Shown piece after piece: positions 188-64,000 of a stretch of 64,000 nt of DNA (positions are counted from its first letter, which is position 1; every line of letters begins with the position of its first letter). Made by a program: the position numbers and the translations under genes. The notes under the pieces are model-generated. The model ran no database searches and was not told the DNA's origin. It saw nothing but the letters and a program-made list of their open reading frames with translations. The DNA comes from Amoebophrya sp. A120 (Eukaryota > Protista > Dinoflagellata). Where the stretch lies: the NCBI GenBank assembly GCA_905178155.1, contig CAJINV010000001.1, positions 4,754,747-4,818,746 of the forward strand. Reading direction: 5' to 3'.

Positions 188-3100
188 TCGGGATCCCGCG
201 GTACACGTTCGCCCCGCCGACCTACTCCGCGGACGACATGGCCGCCGGACTGCAAAAATTCCACGAGTACCGGTTTCGCATCGTGTGCGTCGTGGTGCAG
301 TCCGCCACCGACGTCGTCGCCAACACGGAGACGCAGCAGGGCCAGAACTATCAAAAGGAAAAATCCCCCCTCCCCATATCGAAACGAAGTTTCTGATGCT
401 GGATTTCAATACACAAATCAGATTTGTCTTGCAGTAGAGGAATGCATGCATATGTCAAGCCTCAGTCGAGAGGTTTTGACGTAGGCGCCTCGCATGGCAA
501 ACGTGTATGCTCTAAGCCAAACAGCATCACAAACCGCCTGCAAAATGCGGAGCGCTTTCTGGACTTGCCTTCTTGCAAGACAGACAGGATTTGAGGTCGC
601 AAATGCGCATCGCAAATTTTGAGACGGATACGTTTTCGATATGGGGAAGGGGGATTTTTCCTTACGATAAGAACGCGGCCGAGGTGGTGGTGATCCGCGT
701 GGAGCGCGCGCCGCTGAAGGTGCTGCTGTTCCCCAGTGGCACGGAGTTCCCGCAGAAGGGGACCACGATGGCGCTGAACGCGCGGTTCACCATGGACCCG
801 GACTTGGAGGAGGTCTACCCGTGCCTGCTCGACCCCGGCAGTCTCGCCTGCAGCACGCTGCCCGACTTCGGGTACAGCGGTGACTTCACGTTTCGGTGCT
901 GGAAGGTGACCCCGGCGGTGCAGAACCAGGGGGCGGAGATCGAGGCGGGGGACACCGTGTGCCCGGGGAACAACTACGTGGTGAAGGATGTGAACACGGT
1001 TTGCGCCGAGGGCAGCGAGATTCTGGACGCGGTGATGTGCGAGACCGCGGCCAACGAGTGCGGCCCCTACACGTGGAACCCGGTGAATCCCGACAACCCG
1101 GGGGAGCTGGGCGGGTGCTTCTTCCGCACCAACGAGAACGACGTGCAGTACAACGGGTTCGCGGTCCGCACCATTGAGGACGGCATGGCGGACCGGCGCC
1201 CGATCTGCTGGCACCTGCCGACCGCCGAAGTGGTGACCACCACCCCCGCGGGCACGACGGAGGTGACGGCGAGCGGCACGACGATGAGCCCCTGCTTCAC
1301 GCTGAACCTGGGCCCCGGGGCGAGCCCGATATCAAATGCAAAAATGACTGGGTCTGGAAGGATGCGAATTTCTGCTGCGCATTTCACAACACACACAAAT
1401 CTCTCATGCATAGGCAGCAAAAGGTGCCCACTTCCTGTCGCCAAAAAGGAGGATTTGTCATGCGGATTGCGCATTGCGGAAGGTTCTCGAAATCTGTGCT
1501 GCTAGGGCAGCCACGACAGACCTTCTGTGTCATGCAAAAAGAGCATGACCTTCTTCCAGACCCAGACATATTTGCATTTGATACCCGAACGGGGTGTACC
1601 AAACGCTGACGAACGGGAACATCGACGACTTATGCAAAGAAAAAAGTGTTACAGTTACACATTGCGTTGCAAAACATGCAAGACAGGCGACCTCTGTCAT
1701 GCGCAAAAAGCTTGCGAGTCTCGTTTCGTGTGTGTTTTGCCTTATGATCTCTGCAACGCAAGTTTTCTCCGTCATGCGAGGCAAATTTGTGATGCTGAAT
1801 TCACTACAAATGTGTAACTGTGACACTTTTTTCCCGTGATACGACTGGAAGTTGCGCGACTACACGCAGAGCGACGTGTGCACCCAGAAAGGCGGGGAGA
1901 ACGTGCCTGGGCTGGAGATCGGGTACAGCGTGACGATCAACTATCCTATGTAAAAACGTCTCCACCCCAGAGTCGAGTCAAGATGGGGAATCGGCTAGAC
2001 AAATCCGCAAGTTTTGGCTGTTTTGCATGATAAGTTTGAATTCGTAGCCTAGTACTGTTTGAGGTAGTTCAGCAGTATCACAGATCTAGCCTATCTTGCT
2101 GATTGGAGCACAACAAATACCAAAACGCGACTAGATAATGCTTCTCATGGGGCTCCGCATCAGAAACATTTTCAGCATGCAGATTTGCATATACAAGTAT
2201 GGGGTGGGGACGTTTTTAAATACGATATCAACCAGGTCACGTTCAAGGGGGGCGACCCGGAGGCGATCCCGCCGGTCCTGCCGGAGTGCTTATCAAATGC
2301 AAATATGTCTGGGTCTGGAAGATTGGCAGGTTTGCCATGCTAGCTTGGCAGGACTCAACTCTGTTGTATTGCGTGGCCGCAATGAGGTTCTCTTGCCTGT
2401 CATGCAAAAACGCAGTGTCCCATGCGCAGCAGGCAACTCAGAACCATGGAAAAACTTGTCATGCTTGGCAGCGCATTGCAGTGCGCTCCCTATTCCCTTC
2501 CTTGCATCACAAGTTCCCAGACCCAGACATATTTGCAATGCATAGTGCTACTGCTACTACAACGAGGGGCTGCTGCTGGTGGAGACGAACAAGATGACCT
2601 TGTCCATGGGCGAGGAGTTCTACACCTTCCACGTCACCTATGCAAGTGCACAACTCCCCCTCTCCCTCATTTCTATGGCCTGAGCAGCAATACAAACAGA
2701 AACACATAGATTCGTGGAGCCTGAGCAACATGACAAGTTTATGCGCCGACTGTCGTACTGTTTGGACTTGTTCCAGAATTTGTCATGCAAAAAGTGCTAC
2801 AAGGCAGCAACTGGATTTGGGATTTCGCATTACAAATGAGGGAGAGGGGGACTTGTGCAATGTCATATCACCGCGGTCCACGAGGACGGGCGGCGCGGCA
2901 CGGACACGGTGGACGTGAACATCGTGGACCGGATCGTTTTGCAGGTGTTTTTGAAGGAAGTGAAGCTGGACCCGGATCTGGCTTTGCTACCGCTGACCTC
3001 CGTGTATCAGGATGTGGTGCTGGAGGGGTCCATATCAACTGTAAAAATGTCTGGGTCTGGAAGAATTCATGTTTGTCATGCTTGTCTGGCATGACTCTTA

Positions 3101-6100
3101 AGTCTGTCATGCACGTTACCCCAGAGCTCCGTTTTTTTGTGATGCAGAAGCGCAGTTTGTCATGCAGAATAGGCAACACCTAGGAACTCAGAATCTTGTC
3201 ATGCTGAGCCAGCATTTGTAGCCTCGTCATGAGACGCCACCCAGCATCACAAGTTTCCAGACCCAGACCACATTTTTACATTTGATAGTCCATCACCCGG
3301 GACCCGAATTTGGACGGCGCGATCTACGAGTACCGCTGGGAAATTTACAAGAAGCAGTCGGGGGGCAATGTGTACGTGACCGAGTGGAAAAACGAGACGG
3401 ACACCTTCACCTGGGACGACCAGTCGATTATTGAGTGGGACGCGAGCCGCACCAGCCGCATCACCTTCCATTTGGATCCCAACAGCAACGAGCGGCCGCT
3501 GTCGACGCAGCTGCAAAAATCCACCAGCTACAAGATGATTTTTCACGTCACCGCGAGAGTGCCAGGCGGGCAGTACCAGGGCACGTACTTCGGCAAGGCG
3601 CAGCGCGTCGTGCACACCGCGCCCGGGCCGCCGATTCGCGGCGGCTTCACCGTGAAACCGCAGGCCTACACGTTCCCCGACGACCTGCTGACGAACGCGG
3701 ACTTCGGCCGGATCCCGCACAGCAGCCCGATCACCTACGAGTTCGACGCGCCGCAGTGGCGCGCGGACAGCACGGGGAGCAACATGGACGCGGACCTGAG
3801 CTACAGTTTCGGGTTCACGCCGGTCCAAAAGGACGGGACCGCGGCGGCCACAATCTGGCAGGTGGAGGACCAGAGCAGCACGTACTTCGAGGTGAACGCG
3901 CACCAGGTGGCGTACGACGGGCAGGACACGCTGATCGCCAACCTGAAGGTGTGCACGGTGTACAAGGTGTGCGCCACGGGCGAGGTCACCATGGCCATGA
4001 ACTACAACGACCAGGCGACCTACGAGGAGATCAAGTTTGCGCTGCTCGGCGACGGCCTGTCCGCCGTGGACCCGCAGAAGGTCGTGGCCGCGCAAATCAC
4101 GGCGGACGGCATCCAGGGACGCCTGACCCCGGACCAGTACGATGAGTTGCAGGGCGACTTCCGCGACAGCGTGAAGAGGTTTGACTTTGGCGGGATGGAC
4201 ACGGCGGAACTCGGGTCGGCACTGCAAGCCACCAGCTCGGCGACGGGCAGCGTCGCCGGCATTGAGGACCAAAGCGAGAAAAACGCCCAGATCTCGGATT
4301 TGCTCGACACCACAGGGTCTGCGATGGTAAAGAGTGGTAGATGTGATCATATTTTTTGAATTTTTTTGGATTTCTTGCTAGGTAGGCATCAGCATCTCGA
4401 ACACGCATCCATGCGCTACAGTTCTTGGGGAATGTTTCTGATGTTCATTTACAGGATTCCTTCCTAGCGGGGCCGATCTCCGCGGACGGCGCTCGCGCGC
4501 TGATCGACGTGTTCTCCAACATTCTCTCGGCAACGGGCGGCCAAGGCGATGCGAGCGGCGTGAGCCCTAGGCGACAGCTTGGCGTTGTCAAGTTACTCAG
4601 TGAGTATGAAGATGAATTTGGCGATATCAACGTGAAAAGTGCTCCCCACCACCAAAGTTGCGAAACTTTGTGATGCGAAGTTTTCAAATGAAAACTTTTT
4701 GTCATGCATGAAAGGAGTATGAATCTTTCTGATGCAGATTCTAGTCGTGTTTCGCATCGCTTGCATGACAAGCACCGCTCTTGCTGGGATCTTTTGCAAT
4801 ACAAATTTTTGCTATTCACGATCGGAAATCTGTGATGCTGATACATGCAAGAGGGCGAATGTTTCATTTGGAAAGGTTTGCAATACAAATGCTTTCAAGT
4901 TCGGGGGTGGGGGCATTTTTCAATGTAATAGGCGAGGACTTGCTGGAAACTCTTGAAGATGCGGTGAGACGGGAGGAGGCAGACGCAAGGCGGCGCCTCG
5001 GCTTGCAGAAAGGAAGTTCGTCGTCCGACGAAGAGGACCACAACCTAGATGAAAAGGAAACGCGGGATGAAAAGCTGACCTACAGGACCAGCAAGGACTA
5101 CGACCTGTCGCAAGCCTCAGAGACGGAGATTCGCGAGCTGCACGCAGATGTCGCGAACGTGTTAACTCCCACGGAAATCGCCGATCTTTTCAGTGGGAGA
5201 CACCTAACTCCATCTTCCGGGGGACGACAGCAGCTGCAAGGGGCTCATACACCGGGAAGTACTATTCCTGCTGATCATGCTACTTCCACAGTCTCCTCGG
5301 GTACTAGCAGCAGAACAACTTCTGCGACGAACTGGTACCAGAGCGCCACCGTCGAGCGGGGGCCGAGCGTCGGGAACGCGGGCACCAAGGAGCAGGACTG
5401 GCGGATCGCCGAGAAGTACGGCCGGAGGTACTCGCGGAAAGAGTTCGAGAAGCGCCTGCGCATTCTGAAACGGCTCGACGAACTGCACTACTACATCCCG
5501 GCCTCGGTCGCCGACGGGGCGGTGTTCGGGCGGCAGGCGTGGGAGAAGTTCCGGCACGCGACGCCCCGGATCTTATCAACTGCAAAAATGTCTGGGTCTG
5601 GAACAAAGCAACTTGTGATGCGCATTTCACAACACGGAAAAATCTCTCATGCATATCAGGCAGCAAAAGCTCCCCGCTTTCTGTCACCAAAATGGGGCAT
5701 TTGTCATGCGGATTCGGCATTGCGGAAGCTTCTCGAAACCTGTGATGCTAGAGCTTGCATGCCAGACCTTCCCTGTCATGCAAAAGCAGCATGACTCTTC
5801 CAGACCCAGACATATTTGCAATCCATAGATCTCCCCGGGAAGCTACTTGATCTCCGACACGGCCATGCGTGCGTTGGAGCGGGCAGAGACCAAGTCGGGA
5901 GAATTTGGGTCCCCTCTGGTAACGCACCGACCGAGGAAACGAGCCGGGTTGAACCACGAGCACCCACCGCCCCGGCAGCTGTTCGTGCAGAAGGGTCTGT
6001 CAAGTAGCGGCTGCGACTTTTGCGGCGTGTACCACACCCCGTTTCCGCTGACGGATGCGGTTACCGGGAAGTACGAGCCGTACGCTGCGTACGGCGAGCG

Positions 6101-9100
6101 CGACATGAAATTTCTGATGGAAAAGCCGTTGGTGGTGGACGATTACACCGGGGAGGTTAGGGACTCCGCGTTCACGCTGACGTGGAACCGCACCCATTCG
6201 GTCTACCAGATCGTGGACGCGCGGCGCAGGAGGATTGTGGCGCAGACGACAAACACGCTGGCGACGCGGGACGGAAAGCGAGTTCGCCTTCTCAGTGCGG
6301 ACGATTTGATGAGTGCTAGAAGCAGTAGAAATAGCACGAGTAGATCTTCGACTTCTTCGCAAGAACAATCCTCTAGTACTTTTTGGTCCATCTTCGGCGC
6401 AACCAGTTCTACAGAAGACGTGGAAGACGATCCCACAGCAGTTGCTGCAAGCAGACGAGCGCTTGTCTCCTCCCCGGCGCGCGAAGCGGACAGCACGCTC
6501 GGTGGGCCCTTGCTTCTCCGGCACCCAGAGGCACTGGAGTGGGCTCCGGCATTCGTGAAACTGCGTGCTGTGCCGGCGGTAATCCACGAATGTCCGTCGA
6601 GTTTCTGCGACGATGTCGGCCTACTTTGCTTCACGGGATCCTTTCGTGCCCAGCGGGTCGGCGGCCCGGTCTGGGGAAAGGAGCACATGCGGTGGCAGTG
6701 CTGCGGCGAGAAAAACCCGGAGACGCTGTGCAATCAACCGCCTTGCTGGTTCGCTCAGAAGTGTCCCCGCCCGAAAGAAGAGGTAAAGAAGGAGTTCGAG
6801 AAAAAGCAGCGCACGCAGCTCCGCCAGCTGCGGGCCGAGGTTTTGCAACACCGCAGCCGAACGGCGAGCTCACGCGAGGGCTCGTTGACGGACCTATTGG
6901 CAGGAGCACCTACAAGTCGTAGAAACGCGGAAAACACCAGGGCGAATAAAGCTGCGTCTTCAGCATCTTCCACCTCCTCTAGTTCATCTCCGCTCGAGAA
7001 CACCAGTATGTCGCGAAAACTGCAGGCCCGGGACGAGCGGCGGCGTCGGTTGGAGGAAGCGATTTTCACGCAGGAGTACCAGGCGCAGGAGTACAGCCGC
7101 GGCGACCGCGAAACGTGGTTCGACCGGTGGATGTGCGACGAGGCCAGCAGGAACACGACGGTGGGGCGGATGTGGAAGAAGTTCAATTGGACCATCGACA
7201 ACGCGCCGATCTCCTTTGCCGACCGGGCTCGCGCCTACGAACTCTACCACAGCAGTCCGCAGAGGCAACTGCAGATGGCGGGCGCTTTGATGCTGGACCA
7301 AACGACGATTGACCAATACGGCCAGATCTCTTTCGTCGAAAAGTACGAACTCCCGCTCCTGCGGGACGCGAAGCGCATGAACCTGCAAGAGCAGATCGGG
7401 TTGCAGACGGCCACGCTGGTCGACGCGAAGAGCGAGATCGAGTACAATTCGCTGGACCCGGCTTCGGCCGCGGCCTTCCGAGCGGACGACGCGAGCAAAC
7501 TGCTCGCGGAGCGGCGGAACCAAATGGACACGCGGCGGAACATCTCGCAAGCGATGACGCGATTGAGTCTATCAAATGCAAAAATGTCTGGGTCTGGAAG
7601 GATCCAAACTTGTCATGCTATCTTTGGACTCTAAAAAAATCTGTATTGCATGACCAGGAAGAGGAGCGCAGATTGTGCTACGTGGAGAGGGCATTTGTCA
7701 TGCGGAATAGGCATCAGGAAAAGATCTGTGATGCTAGGCCGTGCATTACAGACATCCTGGGTCATGCAAAACATGCGTGACAAGTCTCAGAATCTTCCAG
7801 ACCCAGACATATTTGCATTTGATAGAGTCTGTACCGGGACAAGCTTGTCCGCGCCTTAATCCCCACGCTCGTCGTGAACGCGCGACAGCCGCTGAGTTTC
7901 GACACCACCTCGTTCACGATGGACGTCGGACGGCAGACCAACATGAGCGCGGTCAGTTCGGCTTTCGTCTTCCCTTCCGAGTTCATCGTGCCCAACGATT
8001 CCCCGCCCGAGAGGACGGCGACCAACAACGTGACCGCGCTGGCGTATCAGTTCATACGCTACAAAAACAACATTTACTACTGGAGCCCTTCGAACCCGAA
8101 GAGCCAGGAGTCGGCGGTGATCACGCTCCTGATGTTTTACGCGGACGCCCGGGAGTATCCGGTGTGCGTTGCCGGCAGTGGGTGCAACGAGGGCAACGAA
8201 TTCATCCGCGTTTTCGCGGACTACCAGGTCTACAGTTCCGGAGTGTGCTTGATTTGGGACCGATTCTTCCCCGACACGGCGGGCGGGGCGTGGAATGGCC
8301 GCGACATTATAAACGACGGGAACGGGTGCTTGACTCTCACGCTCGGCGACATCGGGTTCTTCGTGGACGGGCGCCCGTCGCACATCTACTCTTTAACCGA
8401 GGCCAGCATTTTCCCTTTAAGCCGGCTGGTGTCCCGGACAAAGCTGAGCACGTTCGCGACGCTGATCATCCTGCTTTTGTTGAATTGGATGCTGGTTTTT
8501 TTAGGGTACAAGCAGGACGAGAAGGTGCGCAGCGAGCAACGACAGGGGGTTCGGCCGTACGTCAGTTATCATCTCGACGGCGATGGCATCCACACGCCGC
8601 TCACGTGCGAGGACCCGATCGCCTACAAATTCGCGGAGGACAGAAATCAATTATTCGTCAAAACGTTCTGGAACGTGATGAAGCGCGAGCATTTGGCGAT
8701 TGGCCCGCTGTTTTACCACGAGACTTTCACGCGCCCGCAGCGGCTGCTCTGTACCATGACGCTGATCCAGGGGCTGTTGGCGTTGAACGCCGCGGTGTAC
8801 GGGAATCCCAACGCGCTGGCGAGTGCGGACCAGTACGTGATTAGCGGGATTCTGTCCGCACTGTTGATGTTCCCCGTCTACTGCGTCTTTTTACTCCTCT
8901 TCTCGCAAAGGCCCACCCCGGTGAAGCGACGGATGATCAAGCGGCGGGCCATGAACCGGGATTTGGACCTGATCAACGCCGAGAAGGAGAAGTTGATCGC
9001 CCAATCCAGTATGCTACCGGCGTCCGCTCTGACGCAGCTGTCCGGCGGTCGGGGCCAGGCGTTGCCGATCGGAAATCTCGCGGCGCACAACGAGAACATG

Positions 9101-12100
9101 TCACTTTTAGCGCTACCGCCCCCGATCGCGTCGCCCAGCGTGGTCGGGCGGTCGGGACAACTGGCGCTGCCCGGTCCGGGCCCCGGGGGAAACCCGCCGG
9201 CGCCCAAGTACCCGCCACCCCCGGGGTACGCAAAGGCGTTGCCGCCGCCCCAGGAGTTGCTGCCGCCCATCTACTTCAACAAGGCAGGCATGCCGCAACT
9301 CCCCGCGCTCCCCTCGTTTGAGCCGCAGGCGAAGGCCGCGACGCCCCCGGCACCGCCGGGCGTGGGAGGCGGAGGTGGCACACCGCTGGGCGGAATGCGG
9401 GCGATCTCGCCGCGGCAGGCCAAGCCGCCCCCGCCGGCGCTGTTGCCGCCCGGTGCCGGTAGTCCAGCGGTTCCCCCCGGGCCGCCGCCCGCGGCGGAAG
9501 GGGCGCACAACGCTCCAGAGGACTTCTCCGCAGACGAGTCTTCGTTCAGCAGCGACAGTGAAGAGAACGGCGAGAACTATCGCAATCCAGAGGGAGCGGT
9601 GCCTTATCTCTTCTCGGAGGACGAGATTTCGAATTTCTCCGGTAGTGAAGAGCGAGGGAATTCATTCTCCTCAACGACTGGGAGAATAAGGCGTGGTGAG
9701 TCCTCAGCGCACAGCGAAGCTGCGTCTGTGATCGATCGGGAAGATGCGGAGGAGAGAAGTTCCTCTTCATCCAGGAGCCGGCGTCGGCATTTTCAGGAAG
9801 GGCAACACGAAATGGCGCCGCCACCACCCCCGCCACCTGGTGGTACATTCATCTTTTGCGTTTGATTTATTTCCCTTTCGGAGATTTCTGAAATTCTGAT
9901 TACCGCCGAAAAGTGCACCAGTTTCCGCACGAAACTATGTTGAAACCCATTCGAAAATAACCTATCAGGTCCACCGGGTGCGCAGCGCCCGCCGCCACCT
10001 CCGCGCCCGCCAAATTTGAACCTGTCGGGTAATATGCCAGCGATGCCAACGTACGGATCCTCCTTCGAGCCCAAAACGCCGTCGATGCCCCCACCATCCG
10101 CCCGGGGATTCTTACCGGCAACTCCAAAAGGCCTGCCGCCCATTATCCCGTTCGGTACGATGCGGCCGGACACGCTGATTCAGCGCGGGCAGCCACCCGC
10201 CTTCCACCCCGCGCCCTTCAGAATGCCGCCGCCACCAGGCATGGGCGGCATGGGTCGACCGCCTCCGCCGGCCGGACCGGGGGCTTTGACCGGATATGAG
10301 TTGGCGCTTCCTGGTCCGCCTGGAGCGCCGCCGGGTTCAGGTAAGATAAAGATTTGTTGTTTCGATTTCGCATGCCTGAAAGTACGGTACAATGCCGAAA
10401 AAATGCTCGCGCAGCTGAAGATTATGTAGAAGATGATGAGATCAGCGAAAAGAAACGCGCCACACTACGTACAAAATGACTCTAGGATTTCCACCAGGAG
10501 CACCCCCACCTGGTGCTGGAGCTGCTCCAAGCGTGACCGGTGTGCCCCTTCCGCCGCCGCCACCCCGGGAGGACGATTCCGCGTTCGTCCGGAGGGTACG
10601 GCTGATCTACATGGACCGGGTCATGCGCGAGCACCAGAAGCAGGAGCTCCTGGAATTGGACGCGGTGGGCAGGCCCATACCAAATTGGGTGTTCCAGCTT
10701 TCCACCATAATGCCCTACATGACCTCCGCAGTCTTCGTCCTCGGCTGCATCTGCGTCATCATGATTTACGCCATCAAGTTCGATTCGTGGCAGGAGGAGC
10801 ACTGGTACTTACAGCTATTTTCAAAAAGATAAAGAACATACCGCGAGCGATTTTCGTTGTGTCATGCTCATGTGGATGTGCGCCAGACCATCGTTGATAG
10901 AAATCTACTTCACGACTACAATCTTGTGAAGTCCGTACCGGCCTTCTTTTCAGAGAATCTTTGATGAAACGACACGACTATCAAAAGGTATTACGCGTGC
11001 ATCATTGGGTTTTTCATGGTGGTGTTTCTCCTCGACGTGATTCGCGCGGCCGTAATTACTGTGGTGGAACTCCGCAAGTTCGAGATTCGTAAGCGGTCAA
11101 AAGCAGGGGAGTTTGTCGTGCGCAGGGTGCAGAAGCAGGACGACCACGACAGTTTACCCGGTATCTTGAAGCCGAAACCAAAGCACAAGGCATCCGCAAC
11201 GCCGGCGGCCCCGAAAGTGGCACCAAAATTCGCCAATATGGAACGACCACGATTTTTACCAGAGCCACCAGGAGGGGCGCCCATGATGGGAGGGACTTAT
11301 GGTAAAAGCGATGAATATGTACGGTCTCGTTCATCTGCTCGGGTTGCCTGTTGCTTCAAGTTGGATGCAGCTCTAGTCTACTTAAGTGAGGAACAATGAT
11401 CGTTGCGCTCGCATGCAATTGTAACTTGAAAAAATTAAGAAACCGTACCATTTTACAACAGATTCTTCTTTTCGCACGACCGGTGGTGGGTCCCCGCCTC
11501 CCCCTCCGATAATGCCGCCTCCTGGGATAAGCGAGTGTCAACATGTGGGAAAGCGTAAAACGTGAAGAGACTTGAATCTCAAAGAAGTTTTGTGTTCTTG
11601 CATGTGATCTGATCTGCAGACTAAGTAATACAAGCGTTGGCAGGTTTATTTGCACCAACCAGTTGCATTTTTTGTGAGGAAGAAACAGTGCGAGTAAGTA
11701 GAAATTTCACACTACTTAGCGATTTTCCAGTTCTTGGCGCTTCCATACGGGAACCGCACACCGCCGCCACCGGGTGCACGGACGCCGCCGCCCGGAACTC
11801 CCGGGCGCAGAACGCCACCGGGCGGCCGGGGGCCCAATGTGCCGTTCGGGCAAGCCTCTCCGATGACACGCAAGCAGGCCGGAGACGTCTCCCCCGCGGG
11901 CTCCAACTTCAGCCAGACGCTCCAGGAGCGAAGGGCCATGGGACACAGCACGACCAACGCATCGCAAACTGCTCCGGGGGGTGGATTCCCCAAGTAAAAG
12001 TCCTCAGATAGATTGAGATCGAGTTCTTAACTGTTCGTCATCTAGTCAGCTAGGTAAAGTTCATCGTGTTTTTCTTTCGTCTATTCGTATTCATGCATTC

Positions 12101-13619: not shown

Positions 13620-16600
13620 ATGGCCGAAACAGAGGAAAATACTGCTGTCGTCGAAGAACAAGCCCCAGCGCCTGCTGCGGAAACCGTAGAGGAGGCTGCT
13701 GCAGCACCCGCGGTCGAAGCGGCTGAGCCCGCGGCGGAAGAAACCACAGCTGCGGACGCTGCACCGGCCGCGGAAGTGGGCGAGGCAGAAGCTGAGGCAG
13801 AGGTCGCCCCCGCACCTGCGGAGGAGGCCGAGGCCGTTCCAGAAGCAGAAGCAGCCGTAGAAGAGGCCCCAACAGCGCCTGAAGAGGCGGCTGCCGCGGC
13901 GGAGGAAGCGCCAGCAGCCGAGGCAGCAGCGGTCGCAGAGGAACTGCCTCCTGCTGCTGAAGAAGCCACTGCTGCAGCTCCCGAGACCAAGGAGGAAGTT
14001 TCCGCTTCTCCGGCAGCGGATGAAAACGTAGAAGTTGAAGCTGCACCTGTTGCAGAAGCAGACATAGTTGAACCAGCGACAGAGGAGGCGCCAGTCGTCG
14101 AAGCCGCGGTTGAGGAGTCTACTGCTCCCGCTGCGGAAACAGAGGCTGCAGAGACTGCAGCTCCCGTAGAAGAGGGCGCTGCTGCCGAAGAACCGCAAGC
14201 TGCGGACGAACCGCCAGTTGCGGAAGAACCTGCCGTGGCTGCAGAGGAGCCCGCTGCCGTCGAAGAAGCGCCGGCTGCTGAAGAGAGCAGTCCCGCTGCA
14301 GCGGAAGAGAGCAGTCCCGCTGCCGCGGAAGAGAGTGCCACTCCTGCGGCTGAATCACCAGTAACAGAGACGCCAGCGGTTGCCGCTCCTGAAGAAGAGG
14401 TAGTAGCTCCGGCCGCGGAGGAACCAGCTGCGGAAGGCGACGCCGCTCCCGCAGAACCAGAAGTCGAAGCCACTGCTGCACCAGATGCGGAGGAAGGAAC
14501 CACTGCAGTTGCTGCGGAGGAGTCTCCCGCAGTAGAGGAAACAGCACCGAGTGCTGCTGCTGCTGCTGCTGACGAGGAGCCCGCTGCAACCGAGGAGCCT
14601 GCTGCAACCGTTGAAGAAGCGGCTGGTGAAGTTGTAGAGCCGGCTGCTGAAGCTGAAGCACAGCCAGCTGCTGGTGATGCTGCGGTGCAGGAGGAACAAA
14701 CCCCCGCCGCCCCGGAACAAGAGACCACTCCGGAACAAACCACGGCTCCGGATGAAACAACGCCCGTCGCTGCCGAGGAAACTCCTGCGCCTGCCGCTGC
14801 CGAAGAAATTACACCTGCAGCGGAAGAGGAACAAAAGCCGGCGCCTGCAGCGGACGAGGACGAAGACGCTGCGGAGGACAGCGAAGAGATTCCGGTCGTT
14901 CCGATGAACGCGGCTCTCGCGGGCTTTGCGCGGCGCAAACAGGAGGAGGAACGGTTAGAGGAGGAGGAGATTCCACTGAACCCTGCGCTGGCCGCCTTCG
15001 CGCGCCGACAAGCCGAACCAGGGTCCGAACAGGAGGAAAAAAGTGAGAACCAAGAGCAACCCAGTGAACAAGAAGGCTCTGCTCACTCCTCGGAGATGAT
15101 GCTGCCGCCGCCGGGCCCGATCAATCCAGCTTTAGCTTCGTTCGCCCGACGGAAGCAGGAGGAGGAACGGTTAGAGGACGAGCCGGTGATGATCAACCCC
15201 GCGTTGGTGAGTTTTTCGCAGCGCAAAACCGCCGGGGAGGAGGAAAGAATGAAGAAAGCGGAGGAGGAGATCGACGAACTGATGAAAGACCACATCAAAC
15301 CCTCGAACGACGAAACGTTGCAGGAGTCCCGCGAGGAGGCGCAGCGAACCGAGGCGGAGCTGACGCCGCCGCAGAAGACCCCCCCGAAGACGCCGCAGAC
15401 GCCCTTCTCCGGGTCCGACCGCCCGAAGTTATGGATTGCAAAAATGTCTGGGTCTGGAAAGAACTTGTAATGCTGCGTTGGGAATAATGAATGCGCTGTA
15501 ATGCACAGCCAAGCATGAAAAATGTCTGCGCTTGTTTGTGTTGCGTTTTTCGCATGACAGCACGACAGGCAAAAGGGTCTCTTCTTGGACACGCATCACA
15601 AACTTTTTGGTCATGCCAGACAAGCATGACAAATCTCGCAATCGTCCAGACCCCGACATATTTGCAATGCATAGAAGTCGCAGAAGAGTAACGCGACCAG
15701 CATGGGCAGCAGCGAGCGGAGTTTCAAAGCGAAGGAAAAGCTCCGGCTGATGGGCGGCACCATTCTGTATTCCGACATCGCGTCTTTGGTCGACGAGCGC
15801 TACAAATTCGCCACGCCGCGCACCCCGATCGGCGGCCCGCCCAAGGACGAGAATTTGGATCCCGAGATCGCGGACCGCGAGCGGAGGCGCGTGGAGGCGC
15901 ACCGGTTACGGAACATGGCGAAGGCCGCGGGGAGCCGGTTCAAGGCGGTGTCGAAGCTGACCTCCATGGGCGCAGCGCAGAGGAAGCCGAACATTCTGAG
16001 CATGCAGAACCACGGGAAAATCCGGGAGGCGGCGCTGGAGACGCAGGCGCACCTCGGCGTGTTGAACTCCGCGTTGTCGAACGAGGGCGGGGGCGTGCAG
16101 ATGATTTCCCAGATGCTGGAGGAGGAGCGGAGGAAAAATCGCGAAGCCGAAGCGTTGAACGACCCGGTCGTGCTGGCGCGCGCGGACTTGAGCAAGAAGA
16201 TCGCCACTTTATTGGAGGACGTGCAGTCGGAACTGACCTGCCGGGCCATCCGGTCGTTGAATGAGGCTTTGATCAAGGATCCGAAGGACAAAAAATCACT
16301 CTTCCGGAAAATTTTGATCGCCAAGGTGGGCAGTATCGAGAACATCATCAAAGCCTACGACAGCAACGGAAACGGCGACGTTTCCTACACCGAGTTCGAG
16401 GCGGCCACGAAAAAAACTTTATCTCAGCAGGAGATGGACACGTTTCTGCTGCTCGCCGGTGTCCCGCAACTGTCCCTGAAGCGCATTTTCGCCCTCTTCG
16501 ACGAGTCCGGCGACGGCACGATCGACACGATGGAACTGGTGGCGTTCAAGTCCACGGACATTGTGCAGGCCGAGTGGGTATCAAATGCAAAAATGTCTGG

Positions 16601-19021
16601 GTCTGGAAACTTGTGATGCTGAAATGTGCATGATGAAAACACTTCCGAATTCAGTCCAGCATGACAATTTCCCAAAGCGCTTTCTCATAGGCAATCTGCG
16701 TGAGAAGCTGCGTTTTTGCATGACAAAAGAGGCTGCGACTTTTGTTGGTTATGCAATACAGATTTCCCAGGAATGTAGAGCTAGCATTACAAGTTCCAAC
16801 CCTCCAGACCCAGACATTTTTGCAGTGCATAGTGGGAGAGCTTGTCCGTGATGCAGAAGTGGAAGCTCTACTGCAGCAAGACCGCCGGCTATGGAGAGAA
16901 AAAAGTTTGTCACAGTCACTACCTTGCAGGTTTTGCATTACAAATTTTTTCAGCATCACAGCTTTTCTTTGTATTGCATAAGCACTAGGGAAATCCCTCA
17001 TGAAGTTTGGCTGTGATGCATGTTTACGCATGACAGAAAATTTTGTATTGTAAAAATGCGCATGAGTGATCGTGACGAACTTTTTTTGTTTGATACCGGC
17101 TGGGAGAACCAGGGCGGGTTCGGGGAGCGCGCGGCGAAAAAGCGCGCGGACGTGGTCGACCGGGTGATGGCGCGGAACGCGGCCGAGGACCGCCGCGACG
17201 TCTCCAAAAAACGCATCCGCGAGCTGTTCCGTTTGGGCGAACGCAACACGTTCAAACTCGCCTCCTTCTTCCGCAAGGGCCTCAAGGGCAAGGAAATCGC
17301 GGAAGTCAAGCTGCTCGGTATAATTTTTGCTATTCATCGATTGTTTTTCGGATGTGAAAAATAGATTTGCACCTGTGGAGGTTGTATTTGGTTCGTCGAT
17401 TTAAGTATTGTAGTACTGGCATCGTTCATGTTCATGATAAGTAACAATGTTCCCCCGGCGCCGTTCAATAGGTGCCCTCTGAACGACCACGACGTCAAGT
17501 TGTGCTTTTGGTCGGGGTGTATCTGTATGTGCATGCTAATTAGTTTATTTGCAGAAACCAAAAGATTGCTGAAACCTATTCCTCTACAGACGCTCCGGAG
17601 GAATTGGCGTACCACAAGTTGCGGCACAAGAAGGATGATATGAACCGGCTGAAGGAGAACCAGAGGAAGGTCGAGACCGCCCTGAAGCACATATGGATTG
17701 CAAAAGTGTCTGGGTCTGGAAGGTTGGAACTTGTGATGCCAACTTTGGACTCTAAAAAATTCGGTATTGCATGACCAGCAAAAGGAGTCCGGTTTGTGCT
17801 ACGCGTGTAGGGCATTTGTCATGCGGAATAGGTACCAGGAAGGCCTCGAAAGATCTGCGATGCTAGGGCTTCCATGACAGACATTCTGTGTCATGCAAAA
17901 ACAGCATAACAAGTTTCGGATTCTTCCAGACCCAGACATTTTTACATTTGATAGCACATGACGGCCAACGACCGCCAGCTGGGTATTAGTCGCGAGGCGC
18001 TGCTGAAGGTGGTGCACGAGGAAGAGGAAGAGGAGGAGCAAAAGGAGGACGGCAAACCAATCGAGCAAAAGAGGCGGCCGCGGAAGGAACAGAAAACCGT
18101 GTCGATCGACGTCAAAATCGAGGGACTCAAGCAACGGTATAAATGAAAATGTTGACAGAGACAGACTGTGAGTGTAGTTCTGTGTAATGACGCTTTATGG
18201 TTTTGATTCAGACTGTGCCTGTGCCAAAGATAGTAAACGGAAATCTGTTTTTTACATTTCATGAGGAGGGATAAAACAAAAATTTCACTTTCGCAAAACG
18301 ATTCACTCAGGTACGCCGTGGATAACACGACGATGCTGCGGCAGGGGCGGCCCGGGCCAGAGGAGCTGCCGCACTTTTTTGAGCGCGACCGTCTGGTTTC
18401 CGAGAAGGAGATCGAGATTCGAGAGCTGGCCGCGGAGCACATATGCATTGCAAAAATGTCTGGGTCTGGAATGATGCAACTTGTGATGCTGCATTTCAGA
18501 ACACACGAAAATCTCTGATGCATAGGCAGCAAAAGCTGCTCACTTTCTGTCACCAAAATGGCGGATTTGTCATGCGGATTCGGCATTGCGGAAGCTTCTC
18601 GAAACCTGTGATGGTAGAGCTTCCATGCCAGAGCTTCTGTGTCATGCAGAAACAGCATGACTCTTCCAGACCCAGACATTTTTACATTTGATAGCACAAC
18701 ATGGCGATCAACGACGTGGACAAAATCCAGGTGGTCTTTGACTTTTACGACGAGGACGGCTCCGGGGAGATGGAGGCGGAGGAGTTTTTTCAATTACTAC
18801 ATGTCCTCACTGCGGGCGCGGAGATGACGGACAAGAAAAGGCAAGAATATTGGATGCAACTGGACGAAGACCGATCGGGTAGCGTCAACTTCGGCGAGTT
18901 CCTGCTCTGGTACTGGCGATCCTTCGGCGCGCCCACGGCCTCCAGCCTGCAGCACTCGAAGCGCATGATGCAAGCGGAGCGCGATCGCGTGGAAGCGGAA
19001 GCGAAGGCCGGCGCGGCTTAA
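13620..19021 (+). CDS. EF-hand calcium-binding protein with long Ala/Glu/Pro-rich N-terminus
   Basis: ATG 13620; frame restored across 5 introners and GT-AG introns 17318-17589 and 18137-18310. Four EF-hand loops: DSNGNGDVSYTEF, DESGDGTIDTMEL, DEDGSGEMEAEEF, DEDRSGSVNFGEF; TAA at 19019-19021. Confidence 0.85.
15430..15673. mobile_element. Introner family A (244 bp), TSD GAAGT
   Basis: TIR present; join reads RPK|SQKS; interior is the reverse complement of the 22317-22572 type. Confidence 0.95.
16579..16831. mobile_element. Introner family A (253 bp), TSD GTGGG
   Basis: TIR present; join reads AEW|ESLS. Confidence 0.95.
16890..17095. mobile_element. Introner, family C-like (206 bp), TSD CCGGC
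   Basis: TATGG..AAAAAAGTTTGTCACAGTCACT / AGTGATCGTGACGAACTTTTTTT..GATA; join reads KTAG|WENQ. Confidence 0.9.
17692..17953. mobile_element. Introner family A (262 bp), TSD GCACA
   Basis: TIR present; join reads LKH|MTAN. Confidence 0.95.
18442..18693. mobile_element. Introner family A (252 bp), TSD GCACA
   Basis: TIR present; join reads AEH|NMAI; interior very similar to 5574-5827. Confidence 0.95.
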
Positions 19022-19986
19022 CGAGGCCTGCGTGTTGTATTCGGGAGGAATTTGGAATTTTACATTATTTTTTTTGTTCAGCAATTTACGTATACGGTTA
19101 GGGATTTGAATTTCTTTGATTATGATTTTGAAAATGACATACAAAATTTTTTTTCTCATTATCACAAAACACATTTACAATAACTTTACAAGCAGCCACT
19201 TCAGTTCCTGAGTGACAGGGTGGTGTACTATACTTACATTCATTTTTCGCATGGTTTTCTGCGTTATTGTATCCTCGTAAAGGACGTTTTCGAGTCATTC
19301 CGAGCATTGCATTGTTTGTACCCCAAAATTGCTACTGCTTGTTTCACATTCCCCAACAGTTGTTTGTGGTGCGTCCACAAAAGGCGCCCCCTTGAACTAC
19401 TCGCGCACTCACTTTGCTCCCCACAAGATTTAAATTTTCATTTTTCGCCCGCATTATCTTTGTAATGCGAGAGCAAACCCCCGTGACATTCCTCCTGTTC
19501 ATTGGAAGTGATCGCATCCCGACTGCGAATCTGAATAAATTCTTTCTACAAGAACCCCCGCTAGATCTGAACAACATCTTAGCTACTTTTGGTTCTCGCG
19601 CACATCCATGATGATAATGTATGAAGGTCGAGTAGTCCAGTGTGTTCCAGCATCCAAATGATGCCCGTGATCCTGATCTGCTAGCTCTTCGCTGTGAAGC
19701 ATTGGCATACGTGGATCTTTTCTTCTGCCGTGGCTTGTCTTTTTTTCTTTTGGATCATGCTTGCATAGATCGGGCGTTTGCACGGTGAAGGTTGTTCTTG
19801 ATTTCGTGCCCAAAATAAAAGTGAAGGAGACACCGATCCGAAAAGCAAACTTTTTTCTTGATATCGAGCTCGAGAGATGACAGTGGGGTAAGAAACAAAA
19901 AGCGGTATCCACAACTTTTTTGAGGATCAGGTGTTTGAGAGAGTTCTATCGGGGTTCTGGAGCTGGTGTTTCAACAACAGCGAACT

Positions 19987-23005: not shown

Positions 23006-23220
23006 TGCCAGCTCTTTCAGCTGGTCCGGTGAGAGAAGCTTTTACTGGGCGTCAGCTCTTTCAGCTGGTCCGGGCTCCTGGTGCTGCAATCACCGTTAGG
23101 AGCATAAGGACTAAGAGCATAAGTCTTCGCTGCACTGTGCAGCTTCACCAGACGCGCACCATCAGAAGTGCGGAACTGGCGGGAGTGCTCGTGCTGCACC
23201 ATCAGAAGTGCGGAACTTGC
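23006..23220. repeat. Cluster of short direct duplications
   Basis: CAGCTCTTT(T)CAGCTGGTCCGG twice, GAGCATAAG twice, GCACCATCAGAAGTGCGGAACT twice (23156 and 23196). Confidence 0.7.
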
Positions 23221-31412: not shown

Positions 31413-31444
<32 letters not shown>

Positions 31445-60048: not shown

Positions 60049-61215
60049 TAGAGACAGATACTTAGCTTTTATGGTGGCTTTCGATTTGATATTCATCAGG
60101 CTTCGCAGCGAAGCAAATTTTGAATTTTTGACTTTTATTTATCTTCGTCTTTACAGTTCGATTTCGATTCGTAAGAGCTTTGATTTCGTGGAGTGTAGAA
60201 GTAAAAGCTCTTTGGATCATCGTTTTTCCGCAGACTACAGAGGAGTATATTGTATGATTTTTCTTGACCGTCAGTTCGTTTTTTTTTTTCGGAAGGTAAA
60301 CAGAGTTGCATAATCAGACTATGAACGACTGATGAGATTCAATTTCAAATATATTTTCGTTCCCTGACGGAGCATCAATTCGAGGCCAATAACTACTACC
60401 CTTTTTTTTTCACCCCCTCGCCAAAAGCATTTCTTTCGAAATATCTTTATCTGCCCCCACAGCATATCGAATCCACCCGATGCGTTTGACAACCTAAAGT
60501 TTTATTTTTTGATCTCTCTCTAACTCTATCACCAGCCACTATCAGCTTCAGCACGAACAAGACGAACACGAAGACAAAGTTTGATGGAAGCTGGTTTCTG
60601 ATGTTCCTAAAACACCTCCTTCGTACCTCCACCACATCGCTCAACATCCGTCCTGGAAGATCTCACCTTAGTAACAGACCGCGACGGAAAAGTATGAAGA
60701 TCCGCTACTAGATCGTCACTGTCGTTTGTTGTGCTCGTACGCAGTCCCTGCGAAACGGTGTGGAACCAAGGGTCACGATGTTGTACGCAACGGTATTGCA
60801 TTACATAATCTCACAGTCCGCTTCACATGCACCAGGAATTTTGTTTGCATACTGCCATTTAATACAACTTGAAATTTGCTTCCGTGATTAGAAATCATCG
60901 AAAAAGTCGAACTGTTTCTCAAGAAAAGTAGATCGTGGAGATGAAGGTGACTACATCAAGTTTCTTAGTTCCCCGCCGAGTCCTACGATTCGATGAAAAG
61001 AGTTTTATATATATAATTTTATGCTTTTTCTTCGTCAAGTGTCGTTTGCTACCAGTTGAATATGAGAAGTTTCTCATTCTTTCTTGTGACTTTTAAGACA
61101 AAGGACTTGATGCTGTCACGAGCAGAATCGGGAATGAGAAAATGTGCCTGCCGCTGCTTCTTCGTCAAAGAAATTCGTTTCATTCACAAACAGCACCTAA
61201 ATTGTCATGCATAAG

Positions 61216-64000
61216 GTTGTATCAAATGCAAAAATGTCTGGGTCTGGAAGAATGCAGGGCTTGTCATGCACAGCTAGCATGGCTCCCAAGTCTGTCATGC
61301 GCGCCACACAAAAGCCACATTTCTCTGTCATGCAGAAACGCAGTTTCTCATGCAGATAGGCAACACTCTAGCAGCTCCAGAACTTGCCATGCTTGGCTGT
61401 CAATGAAGGCGTCCACATGATTCGCCGAACAGCATCACAAGTTTCCAGACCCAGACATATTTGCATTCCATACGTTGTCTCGATCGGCGTGGCCGATCTC
61501 AACGCGTTTGACACCTGGGCAGACGTTATCAACTGTAAAAATGTCTGGGTCTGCAAGATTCTGAAACTTGTCATGCACGTTTTGCATAAGCCATGACGTC
61601 TGTGATGCATACCCTAGCAATACAGATTTTTTGAGGGCTTCTTGATGCCTATTCCGCATGGCAAATGCCTTCTCAGCGTAGCAAAAATTGCGCTCCCTTT
61701 GGTACTCATGCAATGCAGATGTTTTTGGAATCCAAACGCAGCATCACAAGTTGCATTCTATCTTCCAGACCCAGACATTTTTACATTTGATAGACGTCGG
61801 GCTCTCTCCGGTCACGTATTTGAAGCATGTCAAATCCTACTGGCGAATGGTCGTGCGCGGCATGGGCCTGGTGTCCGTCATCGATCGCGTTTTGCAGCAG
61901 AAAGCGGAACAGGTGGACCACACAGGACTAGTATTAATCGCGCGAAAAATAGACCAGGAGCAGGAGCTGGGGAAAACTTCAGCCTTGTGTGCTGCTCAGT
62001 GCGAAGACGAAAAGGAAGATCCTGCTTCCACCACCGGCGGACAAAAAAAGCTGTCTTGTGCAACAAGTAGTAGCGAGGTGAACTACACTTGTAATAAACA
62101 CACGACTTCTGGTCCTGCTGAGGCAGAGAACTACTGCTCCAGGCTGCACTCGTCCCTTTGGCAGTCGGCGTCGGCACCGTTTTTGTCAGATTGGAAGCAG
62201 AAGTCTGCTGGAGTTCTTGTCTGCCCACAACGGGCTCGGTTGAAGTGTTGTAATCGTCGAGACGACACCAGGGTCGACGAACCGTCTACGAAGAGTAATG
62301 CACCCAGCATTTTTGCCAGTACTGCTCACGGAAGCGGCAGTAATCTAGCGGCTTGTCCAAAACACGAGGATGATGCGCCACCAACAACACGGGCGCAGCA
62401 CCAGGATCCTTTACTTCTCGGAGGAGGATTCTTGTCGGCTGCGACGAGCGATACTGGCGCGCCCTTCAACTCCGGCTCTAGTCTTCGCAAGAGGCACGGT
62501 AGTAGAGCTACTGCCTTAACAAGTACAGCAGCTTCTTCAAAAATAACCAAGCAAGCGAGATACAGTGAGGCCGTGAAGATGGTCGATCATAGTCCAAGTA
62601 CAACAATGCTGTCATCGTTGTCTCCGATGAACTATCCGATGAAGCGTGCGCAGAGCTGTCCCAGCAGCCTTCACGAGCTTCCCAGGCAGTTTCGCAGAAG
62701 CAAACGAGAGGAGCTTCCCGCCGGCCCCAAGCTGATCCACAAAGGGACGCCAGAGGCAAAAATCCCGTGGAATTTCCAGGAGTTTCGGCTCAACGACTGG
62801 ACCTTCCAGGAGCGGTACCAGGAGGTGTTGCAGCGCTATCAGAATCTCTGGACCCTGGCGACAAAGAACTTCGATTTATTTGCGATGTCGTTTCAGTCTG
62901 GGCTAGGTTTTTTCGGAGAAGAATCTTCCGCGAAGAATTTTTCAGAAGAAGAAGAAGAACCGGGTCAACGTCATCAAGGCCAAACCAGTAAACCTGTTGC
63001 CGCTGCTGGTTCCGAATCCGAACAGCGCTTTTTCGACGGGCTGATAAAGAGTGTCTACGATATCTCGATGAAACCCCACGGTCATGACTTTGTCCAGCAG
63101 TCGCAAAGGACCGTCGTAGATAAAATGAATCTTGTTCGGAACGAAAACGATTTTCCTGCCCGAGGCCGAGACGACACGACCCGGGTCGCGGGTTTTGTGA
63201 ATGAAATTGAGCTTCATTGGGGAAGCGTGCAGGCAGACTTTGCGTTCTTTGTGCAGGACGAGATGAGGTCACAGATGGAAAGTCTAGTCCCTGATTACAT
63301 CACGGACAACCCGGACGAGGACGAGATTGACGCTGTGGAAGACGAGACTGGGGGATTCGACAGTACGAGGACGTCATACGACAACTCTGACCACCTGCAT
63401 GCGAAGGATCTTCCGCGTCATGCTGAACCTACAGCTTCTGCGCAAGCGCATCTACGCACTGGTAGCCTGTATGATGACCTCGAGGAGGACGAGAAGGATT
63501 TCGGAAAGCTCTCACAGTCCCGCAAGGGAATTTTGCGATCCAAACTGAGCTTGATGGCCAAGAAGTTACCGTTCAAAAAAGGTGCTTCATCTTCTTCGGC
63601 GCAACTGGGAGCTACAGGTTACCAGCATGATGATCTCGTCGCACAAGCAACTACAGGCTCTGGTCCCGGGGGAAACAAGAAATCAACCACGAGCACTAGA
63701 AAAATTTCTTCTAGCGACACGACCATTTTTTCCGAAGATCATGCTACGGCCGCCCAGAATCAGGCACAGGCTCGAAATAAAGTACAGCACATCAATCTTC
63801 ATCCGCAAGAGCTGAAGCAGCTGCGGCAGCGGTTTGAAGAGAAAATCCTCGGTTTCTTGAATCCGCGGTTTCAAGCGGAATTGCAGCGGTGGAGCAGCTT
63901 GTTCAACTTGGAGCACACGCGGATCGTCGAGGAGGAATCCGCTGCTTACAAGCAAAACGGATGGACCTACTTCTTGATCGAATACGGCGACTATGAGTCC
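61216..64000 (+). CDS. Hypothetical protein, 3' truncated; start not identified
   Basis: Manual translation gives an open + frame from 61474 across introner 61527-61792 to the window end (VVSIGVAD...YLKHVKSYWRMVV...WTYFLIEYGDYES); missing from the ORF track because it has no stop. Confidence 0.7.
61220..61472. mobile_element. Introner family A (253 bp), imperfect TSD GGTTG/CGTTG
   Basis: Clear GTCTGGGTCTGG TIRs; downstream exon VVSIGVADLNAFDTW is open. Confidence 0.9.
61527..61792. mobile_element. Introner family A (266 bp), TSD GACGT, opposite orientation to the 17692/27962 copies
   Basis: TIR present; join reads TWAD|VGLSP. Confidence 0.95.

What the first reader, a model, noticed from the sequence alone, without database searches (positions are those of the whole stretch)
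349..61792. Multi-family introner system: TAT...ATA TIR elements with 5-bp TSDs acting as non-canonical introns
Seen: 22 complete elements from at least five TIR families in six genes share TAT/ATA termini and 5-bp direct repeats. Removing the element plus one repeat restores the frame in all 21 cases with both flanks readable, including inside conserved uL3 and APS kinase motifs. Several (TSDs CCCGA, TCAAC, TCACC, CATTT) cannot give GT-AG or GC-AG at any register. Known: inverted-repeat introner non-canonical introns have been described in Amoebophrya, so the class is not new, but to my knowledge the excision mechanism and mobilising enzyme are unresolved. Inference: ends are defined by TIR pairing rather than by splice dinucleotides.
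Basis: partly seen in the sequence, partly recalled or inferred. Interest (0 to 1): 0.9.

Follow-up and report, generated by a model that had tools for sequence, protein, structure and literature searches.

The report
Transposon introns that ignore splice signals
These are the already published transposon-derived introns of the plankton parasite Amoebophrya A120: they lack GT-AG ends, sit in either orientation and drop out of transcript contigs cleanly, so a still unidentified machine likely reads their folded-back ends instead of splice signals.

Summary
Observation confirmed. There are 23 TIR elements in six genes: 21 run TAT…ATA with an exact 5-bp repeat, one ends ATT and one has a mismatched repeat. 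None gives GT-AG at any register. Two window proteins match Amoebophrya sp. A120 at 100%. Farhat 2021 published this class with the same signature (TAT, 7 nt, AAA; 5-bp repeats), so it is already known. Transcript-like contigs lack 8 of the 15 elements in the stretch laid, each with exactly one repeat removed. Orthologs show no gap at 11 of 12 junctions.

A second assembly (308 elements) adds points not found in my literature searches. Each family sits in both orientations, repeat sequence matches exon background with no splice-dinucleotide bias, and the arms show no RNA-strand pairing signature. The inner stem is predicted to pair reliably, the termini are not. So 'not splice dinucleotides' holds, while 'TIR pairing sets the ends' holds only in part.

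Unexplained: differences between the two repeat copies are mostly synonymous (27 of 42; at most 41% expected). This suggests a sliding junction or allelic mixing. Elements with mismatched repeats are natural markers that could map the cut from existing RNA-seq. No mobilising enzyme was found.

The parts
178..11565 (+). Gene 1, 2656-aa open frame (5' end may lie further up, 3' end approximate); 10 introners and 5 GT-AG introns
   Evidence: homolog P0042 from Amoebophrya AT5.2
349..669 (.). Introner, poly-C TIR type, DR AGAAC
   Evidence: outside the ortholog alignment, no transcript piece listed
1330..1583 (.). Introner family A, DR CCCGA
   Evidence: no gap at junction against ortholog
1631..1841 (.). 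Introner, GTGTTAC TIR type, DR CGACT
1942..2227 (.). Introner, ACGTCCCC TIR type, DR TCAAC
2291..2544 (.). Introner family A, DR GTGCT
2639..2867 (.). Introner, poly-C TIR type, DR TCACC
3033..3287 (.). Introner family A, DR GTCCA
   Evidence: a transcript-like piece starts at 3288
4625..4930 (.). Introner, poly-C TIR type, DR GGCGA; the only GC..AG-compatible one
   Evidence: X3 record 8 leaves 166 letters, as the model does
5574..5827 (.). Introner family A, DR GATCT
   Evidence: X3 record 8 joins 5568 to 5828 with no letter between
7570..7824 (.). Introner family A, DR GAGTC
   Evidence: X3 record 8 joins 7564 to 7825; fold z -10.6
13620..19021 (+). Gene 2, 1237-aa EF-hand protein; 5 introners, 2 GT-AG introns
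15430..15673 (.). Introner family A, DR GAAGT; reverse orientation to 22317 (79% alike)
   Evidence: X3 record 10 joins 15424 to 15674
16579..16831 (.). Introner family A, DR GTGGG
   Evidence: record 10 length sum 681 equals model
16890..17095 (.). Introner, TTTGTCAC TIR type, DR CCGGC
   Evidence: same sum
17692..17953 (.). Introner family A, DR GCACA
   Evidence: same sum
18442..18693 (.). Introner family A, DR GCACA
   Evidence: same sum
19987..22666 (+). Ribosomal protein uL3 gene (PF00297); 2 introners in the 3' part
   Evidence: P0001 100% identical, Amoebophrya sp. A120
21904..22224 (.). Introner, poly-C TIR type, DR TGTGA
   Evidence: gap-free against 9 of 9 homologs aligned
22317..22572 (.). 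Introner family A ending ATT instead of ATA, DR CGGGA, weak stem
   Evidence: z -2.6
23425..24642 (+). APS kinase gene, 269 aa
   Evidence: model equals annotated P0044; PF01583 positions 33-62 and 63-151 flank the element
24038..24277 (.). Introner family A, DR GTCTC
   Evidence: gap-free against 9 of 9 homologs
26317..36594 (+). Gene 5, 2673-aa low-complexity protein
   Evidence: open frame only
27962..28223 (.). Introner family A, DR GAACG
   Evidence: frame only
32967..33288 (.). Introner, poly-C TIR type, DR CATTT (AT..AC-compatible)
   Evidence: frame only
33956..34931 (.). 976-bp TAT…ATA element, 49-bp TIR, DR GCTTG, inside GT-AG intron 33881-34987; no Pfam hit in 3 ORFs scanned
61207..64000 (+). 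Gene 6, open to the window end (755 aa)
   Evidence: frame only
61220..61472 (.). Introner family A with mismatched DR (GGTTG / CGTTG); residue 3 is K or N depending on the copy kept
61527..61792 (.). Introner family A, DR GACGT; reverse orientation to 7570 (76% alike)

Best explanation
The elements are short non-coding inverted-repeat transposons of Amoebophrya sp. A120 that sit in exons between 5-bp duplications and are missing, together with exactly one duplication copy, from transcript contigs; they are likely cut from the pre-mRNA by a dedicated protein-guided activity that would read the inner stem and the symmetric TAT-N7-AAA end motif rather than GT-AG. Shown: the anatomy, precise removal, both orientations and no dinucleotide bias. 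Inferred, step 1: an integrase-like DDE transposase acting in trans inserts the element with a 5-bp stagger and little target preference. Inferred, step 2: arm positions 11-30 pair and bring the two ends together whichever strand is transcribed. Inferred, step 3: a factor bound at the stem base counts out to both repeat copies and cuts and joins at the same register inside them, so the ancestral protein is restored. I put an endonuclease-plus-ligase route at about 0.4 and a U1-less spliceosome handed pre-positioned ends at about 0.3 (listed as a rival). The confidence given is for RNA-level, stem-and-end-motif-guided removal by either chemistry.
For: Identity: P0001 and P0044 are 100% A120 proteins; Farhat's A120 motif is TAT + 7 nt + ≥3 A. 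Removal: X3 contigs join 5568|5828, 7564|7825 and 15424|15674 with no extra letter; length sums fit for 4625 (166) and for 16579, 16890, 17692 and 18442 together (681). X1 and X3 contigs also skip GT-AG introns, so they derive from spliced RNA. Orthologs: 8 of 9 gene-1 junctions, 2 of 2 uL3 and 1 of 1 APS kinase junctions have no gap. Second assembly: exact 5-bp DR in 237 of 308 elements, 4-bp in 1, 6-bp in 0. DR bases match exon background at all five positions; a 3' AG at any register occurs in 69 of 140 vs 49.6% expected; orientations are 38/24, 21/13, 9/4, 5/5, 7/3, 5/4, none significantly skewed. No 5'/3' arm asymmetry at 40 positions. TAT deviates less than the TIR core: 6 of 882 vs 79 of 4116, p 0.009; p 0.02 without position 29. 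Inner stem predicted paired in 17 of 20.
Against: No RNA-strand signature of pairing: G·U 135 vs A·C 121 (p 0.42); sense vs antisense fold 81/77. In the window 13 of 22 DRs start with G, which makes ATA|G, a TAG acceptor (p 0.004 post hoc); the second assembly does not show this (39 of 140; difference p 0.006). TAT is not strictly needed: 22317 ends ATT, and 6 of 294 arms carry a change in TAT. The AAA excess is not significant (p 0.07-0.18). No transposase, nuclease or excised intron was seen. Short-read cDNA can skip hairpins between direct repeats as an artefact. A fixed register does not explain the synonymous skew between DR copies.
Confidence: 0.62

Rival explanations
1. A relaxed major spliceosome without U1 removes them. 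The symmetric 3' arm supplies a U-run 11-15 nt from the end and a TA(N) acceptor one base into the repeat, and the stem places the donor.
For: 83 of 89 spliceosomal proteins found and U1 not detected in A120 (PMC7789003 section 10). A relative with U1 has canonical introns (PMC12005148 passages). Fritillaria precedent (PMC11282704 section 6). G at DR base 1 in 13 of 22 window elements. A symmetric TIR gives the same signals in both orientations.
Against: No AG or GT enrichment in 140 sites, and no GG or CA pairing of first and last bases beyond background. Using NTA as donor and TAN as acceptor together would add 3 nt, which the three direct joins exclude.
Confidence: 0.3
2. The junction is made by repeat homology: RNA polymerase, or a recombination-like step on the RNA, jumps between the two repeat copies across the looped-out element, so both copies contribute to mRNA.
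For: Complete strand symmetry. Differences between DR copies are synonymous in 27 of 42 cases against at most 41% if one copy were free (p 0.002; 18 of 26 for single mismatches, 32 of 55 with relaxed calls).
Against: 59 of 296 elements carry 1-2 DR mismatches, so perfect homology is not needed. The skew reads as loss of nonsynonymous changes only if elements are old (age 0.05); at age 0.02 it is an excess of synonymous ones, which fits allelic conversion or assembly of mixed haplotypes. The window has fewer mismatches (1 of 115 sites vs 78 of 1480, p 0.04). RNA-like runs do hold element sequence.
Confidence: 0.15
3. The elements are excised from DNA during development, like ciliate internal eliminated sequences.
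For: TA-rich symmetric ends, one repeat kept and no strand signature. The ciliate comparison is recalled, not from a call.
Against: The 8 listed contigs of the DNA-like run X5 cross 15 exon-element boundaries unbroken at single-copy depth (41-46). That table was truncated, so rare empty sites are not excluded. I recall no germline-soma split in this parasite.
Confidence: 0.03
4. The removal is a reverse-transcriptase template-switch artefact and the genes are dead copies.
For: A hairpin between short direct repeats is the known substrate (PMC4176328 passages). All RNA evidence here is cDNA-derived.
Against: Retention closes every frame (23 of 23). Exons on both sides stay open and conserved. 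The only A120 hits for uL3 and APS kinase are these genes (1 of 41 and 1 of 10 hits).
Confidence: 0.02

Closest known systems
Amoebophrya A120 introner elements (Farhat et al. 2021, PMC7789003)
   Same: Same organism, TAT + 7 nt + AAA inverted repeats, 5-bp DR, about 240 nt, no dinucleotide signature, hairpin model.
   Different: Nothing in kind. Not found in the sections, passages and term searches I made of that paper: element orientation, DR neutrality, the G·U test and DR mismatches.
A120 introner families of Gozashti et al. 2025 (PMC12130899)
   Same: TIR DNA families of about 150-320 bp. Family 38 is noted as 'Ginger; 5-bp TSD, TA/TA termini' with Copia/Gypsy-like ORFs.
   Different: Their automated TSD lengths vary from 2 to 6; here 237 of 308 are exactly 5. 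I could not match my families to their numbers because no sequences were seen.
Euglenid nonconventional introns
   Same: TIR stem, DR at junctions, variable ends, likely MITE origin, unknown enzyme.
   Different: They need 5'-N3CDG…CH'GN5-6|R and are excised as circles. The signature here is TAT-N7-AAA and the product is untested.
Polarella glacialis and Aureococcus introners
   Same: TIR elements with a TSD; some classes work in both orientations (bioRxiv 2020.10.14.339549 passages).
   Different: They recruit GT/GC/GA and AG from the TSD or element, which fixes TSD sequence. Here the TSD looks like exon background.
Fritillaria borealis non-canonical introns
   Same: MITE-derived, TIR plus TSD, removed despite odd ends.
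   Different: They keep a dominant AG-A(C/T) pattern and are spliceosomal. No pattern was found here.
IS3EU/GingerRoot and Ginger2 DNA transposons
   Same: IS3EU/GingerRoot have TA..TA termini; Ginger2 makes 4-5 bp TSDs; both use integrase-related transposases (PMC10045372 passages).
   Different: IS3EU/GingerRoot TSDs are usually 6 bp (0 of 308 here). No transposase was found.

Membership tests
Amoebophrya A120 introner elements | Host is Amoebophrya A120 | tested here: met
   P0001 and P0044 100% identical
Amoebophrya A120 introner elements | IR starts TAT, 7 variable nt, then at least 3 A | tested here: met
   arms, a few with single changes; 293, 293, 290 and 291, 293, 289 of 294 arms
Amoebophrya A120 introner elements | 3-5 nt direct repeat at the boundaries | tested here: met
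   5 bp exact in 22 of 23
Amoebophrya A120 introner elements | Repeated in the genome | tested here: met
   window cores up to 89% alike; relatives up to 97% in a second assembly
Amoebophrya A120 introner elements | Removed from transcripts | tested here: met
   8 of 15 in the stretch laid; the other 7 are not among the listed pieces; the 8 beyond 19,400 have no RNA data here
U2 spliceosomal intron | GT/GC..AG ends | tested here: not met
   1 of 23 (GC..AG) in the window; GT/GC/GA..AG in 14 of 140 vs 10.4% by chance
U2 spliceosomal intron | Lariat and branch point, U2/U6 dependence | not testable with these tools
   needs lariat sequencing or inhibition
U12 intron | AT..AC ends | tested here: not met
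   3 of 23 and 6 of 140 vs 3.4% by chance; minor snRNAs reported absent
Euglenid nonconventional intron | N3CDG…CH'GN5-6|R signature | not tested
   no motif scan run; the arms show a different conserved motif
Euglenid nonconventional intron | Excised as full-length circle | not testable with these tools
   no circular RNA data
IS3EU/GingerRoot | TA..TA termini | tested here: met
IS3EU/GingerRoot | 6-bp TSD | tested here: not met
   0 of 308; 5 bp in 237
IS3EU/GingerRoot | Integrase-related DDE transposase | tested here: inconclusive
   6 long TAT…ATA pairs in 623 kb plus 60 kb of window, longest ORF 267 aa and host-like; no whole genome held

The most novel reading that the evidence does not exclude
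The elements are removed by a repeat-homology step with no fixed cut site: both copies of the 5-bp duplication end up in mRNA in different molecules, which is why both look constrained for coding. That would be a transposon-erasing reaction unlike spliceosomal, tRNA-type or self-splicing, and it would make any insertion harmless in any exon, frame or orientation.
Probability: 0.2. Interest if true: 0.9.

Novelty: already known. Interest (0 to 1): 0.5.

Why it matters
About two thirds of A120 introns lack GT-AG and nobody has shown how they are removed. The class is published, so this window is no discovery. The added value is a set of constraints and a cheap test. A mechanism must work in both orientations, at any 5-mer, with unpaired termini. 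About a fifth of elements in the second assembly have mismatched repeat copies (59 of 296), and 1 of 23 in the window does; each such site lets ordinary RNA-seq show which copy is kept. That would fix the cut register that Farhat's Fig. 3 marks as unknown, and it would separate a fixed acceptor (spliceosome-like) from a sliding join.

Tried and rejected
No whole genome is held for the window or the second assembly, so no genome-wide transposase search was possible. The family-A pattern had 0 matches in viral contigs. Rfam gave 0 hits in 1-60000. No listed holder is on record as RNA; raw-read run X8 laid only 14 reads and says nothing. A +3 nt model (NTA donor with TAN acceptor) was rejected by the three direct joins. 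My first gene-2 model with a 47-nt exon at 17472-17518 was dropped because the contig length fits one intron 17318-17589. One search used two out-of-frame training sequences and was replaced. Inferring the register from codon scores of mismatched DRs gave no signal (sums 26.1-28.3 apart from one stop). The single case behind that stop (L069 3532) was set aside as unreliable: its element holds an open frame and the search returned only the contig's own ORF call. A/T in the left copy (25 vs 10, p 0.017) weakens to p 0.10-0.19 in the other subsets. The phase bias (DR base 1 at codon position 3 in 72 of 140) is mostly reproduced by a symmetric sequence preference (0.425, partly circular). Long TAT…ATA pairs looked like chance pairings or nested copies. 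Pfam found nothing in 7 ORFs of the two larger window elements. The promoter scan is bacterial and was not used. Earlier findings: none.


Full report
OBSERVATION. The elements are there. Two scans give 21 elements that run TAT…ATA between exact 5-bp direct repeats (DR), one that ends ATT (22317) and one whose DR copies differ at base 1 (61220). Five shuffles gave no TAT…ATA pair. The 23 lie in six plus-strand genes. Removing an element with one DR opens a frame in 22 of 23; the 976-bp element at 33956 sits inside a GT-AG intron. Keeping the element closes all frames in 23 of 23. Gene 1 reads 2656 aa only when exactly one DR goes with each of its 10 elements. No register gives GT..AG; one gives GC..AG and three give AT..AC.

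WHAT IT IS. The uL3 exon and the APS kinase exon match proteins named Amoebophrya sp. A120 at 100%, and my spliced models equal those annotated proteins (C-terminal 255 aa of uL3; all 269 aa of APS kinase). Farhat et al. 2021 (PMC7789003; I read the abstract, sections 10, 11, 16 and 35, passages and supplement passages) describe A120 introner elements whose inverted repeat is TAT, seven variable bases and at least three A, with 3-5 nt DRs and 29,850 copies. Gozashti et al. 2025 (PMC12130899; passages and parts 1 and 15-17 of the family table) note 'Ginger, 5-bp TSD, TA/TA termini' for family 38. The class and its signature are therefore in print.

REMOVAL IS REAL AND EXACT. Four runs were laid on 1-19400. 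X1 and X3 are only guessed to be RNA, but their contigs skip GT-AG introns. X3 contigs join 5568|5828, 7564|7825 and 15424|15674 with no letter between. Unlisted pieces add up to the model for 4625 (166 letters) and for 16579, 16890, 17692 and 18442 together (681 letters). That is 8 of the 15 elements in the stretch; the table was truncated and the other 7 are not shown. A homolog from strain AT5.2, whose introns are reported as 99.98% canonical, aligns without a gap at 8 of 9 gene-1 junctions; 5574 has a one-residue gap beside it and 349 lies outside the alignment. uL3 and APS kinase junctions are gap-free against the 9 homologs aligned for each (9 of 40 and 9 of 9 hits). The DNA-like run X5 keeps the elements at 15 boundaries crossed by its 8 listed contigs.

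A LARGER SAMPLE. The family-A pattern hit 158 stretches in metagenome contigs, all with the prefix JACKZZ01 (153 loci, 623 kb). Their elements are up to 97% alike to window elements. A scan that required TAT, ATA and an AAA run on both arms found 308 unique elements: 237 with an exact 5-bp DR, 40 with one mismatch, 19 with two and 12 with more. A codon model called the coding strand for 140 of the 237; neighbouring calls agreed 40 of 40. DR bases match exon background at each position (p 0.10-0.71). GT..AG-compatible sites are 8 of 140 (3.6% expected, p 0.17). Every cluster of three or more holds both orientations, and pairs at least 85% alike are 95 same-way and 61 opposite. In the window, 15430 and 22317 are opposite (79% alike) and both are absent from the transcript or protein evidence.

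WHAT DEFINES THE ENDS. Splice dinucleotides do not. Terminal base-pairing does not look sufficient either. Among 160 elements, positions 4, 5 and 7 are Watson-Crick in only 84, 91 and 59; family-A arms are matched at 4-10 no better than shuffled partners; and G·U does not exceed A·C on the transcribed strand. Folding puts the inner stem at ≥0.75 in 17 of 20 elements but the terminal three pairs below 0.5 in 8 of 20, three of them among those the contigs lack. With elements defined only by inner core and DR (147), TAT deviates two to three times less than the core, which hints at selection after insertion, though changed ends exist. TAT and AAA lie ten bases apart, about one helical turn (inference), as a protein site on a duplex would. 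Against my reading: 13 of 22 window DRs start with G, giving ATA|G, but 39 of 140 do in the second assembly.

MECHANISM. Shown: anatomy, precise removal, symmetry. Inferred: trans-mobilisation by an integrase-like DDE enzyme. TA..TA ends fit IS3EU/GingerRoot, but their 6-bp TSD does not (PMC10045372 passages). Farhat found no transposase in A120, and I found none in 623 kb plus the window. Inferred: RNA-level removal guided by the inner stem and end motif (0.62 overall), by an endonuclease-ligase route (about 0.4) or a U1-less spliceosome (about 0.3). The symmetric 3' arm always supplies a U-run and TA(N), so orientation independence does not exclude the spliceosome.

UNEXPLAINED. In 34 coding-called elements with 1-2 DR mismatches, 27 of 42 differences are synonymous. 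If one copy were intronic and free, at most 41% should be (p 0.002). Read with an old age (0.05 per site) this means both copies are under coding constraint, that is a sliding join. Read with a young age (0.02, from TIR core decay) it means extra synonymous differences, as allelic conversion or a mixed-haplotype assembly would bring. The window's lower mismatch rate favours caution. The mutation model was context-free. I give the sliding join 0.2.

NOVELTY. Already known as a class. Searches on Amoebophrya with introner, splicing, hairpin, inverted repeat, both orientations and lariat (listings only unless named) and term searches in PMC7789003, PMC12130899 and PMC9860276 showed no report of orientation symmetry, DR neutrality or DR mismatches in this organism. 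The library lacks most subscription papers; Roy 2023 was seen only as its preprint's passages and Henriet 2019 only through a review. Both-orientation introners are known in Polarella, but there the TSD must supply splice sites. Euglena (PMC12501133 passages) is the nearest working analogue.

VERDICT. A real, published system with an open mechanism. The mismatched repeats offer a direct test with existing data. Interest 0.5.

Noticed in passing
window 38166-39737: 1572-bp intergenic element with about 60-bp inverted repeats (GAGGCC…GCCTC) flanked by TTA on both sides. It looks PIF/Harbinger-like (family label recalled). No Pfam hit in 4 ORFs scanned.
   Followed up: partly
window 20534-21064: The annotated uL3 protein skips this stretch. 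It begins TATTGAAGGGGAAAA, ends in a rough inverted copy without a clean DR, and holds two copies of TTTTACCATTTTGCAG (20603, 20979); a similar motif lies at 59064. Possibly a decayed introner with nested introns.
   Followed up: partly
window 34130-34754: Inner inverted repeat with its own 5-bp DR (CTTCG) inside the 976-bp element; possibly a nested insertion.
   Followed up: no
window 46088-59700: Open frame of 4566 codons with no TAT…ATA element, and a 965-codon frame at about 42200-45050 also without one, while gene 1 has ten.
   Followed up: no
loci L001-L153: The first DR base falls on codon position 3 in 72 of 140 elements, and in 6 of the 9 aligned gene-1 junctions.
   Followed up: partly
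window 24682-24692: Lone family-A TIR core motif just after the APS kinase stop codon, with no partner found.
   Followed up: no
L069 6001-7031, L025 632-1465, L051 3862-4492: Family-A ends with an exact 5-bp DR 630-1030 bp apart; possibly nested or composite elements.
   Followed up: no
window 18662-18693, run X8: The few raw RNA reads that map are family-A TIR ends with unrelated flanks, so that run holds the family at other sites.
   Followed up: no
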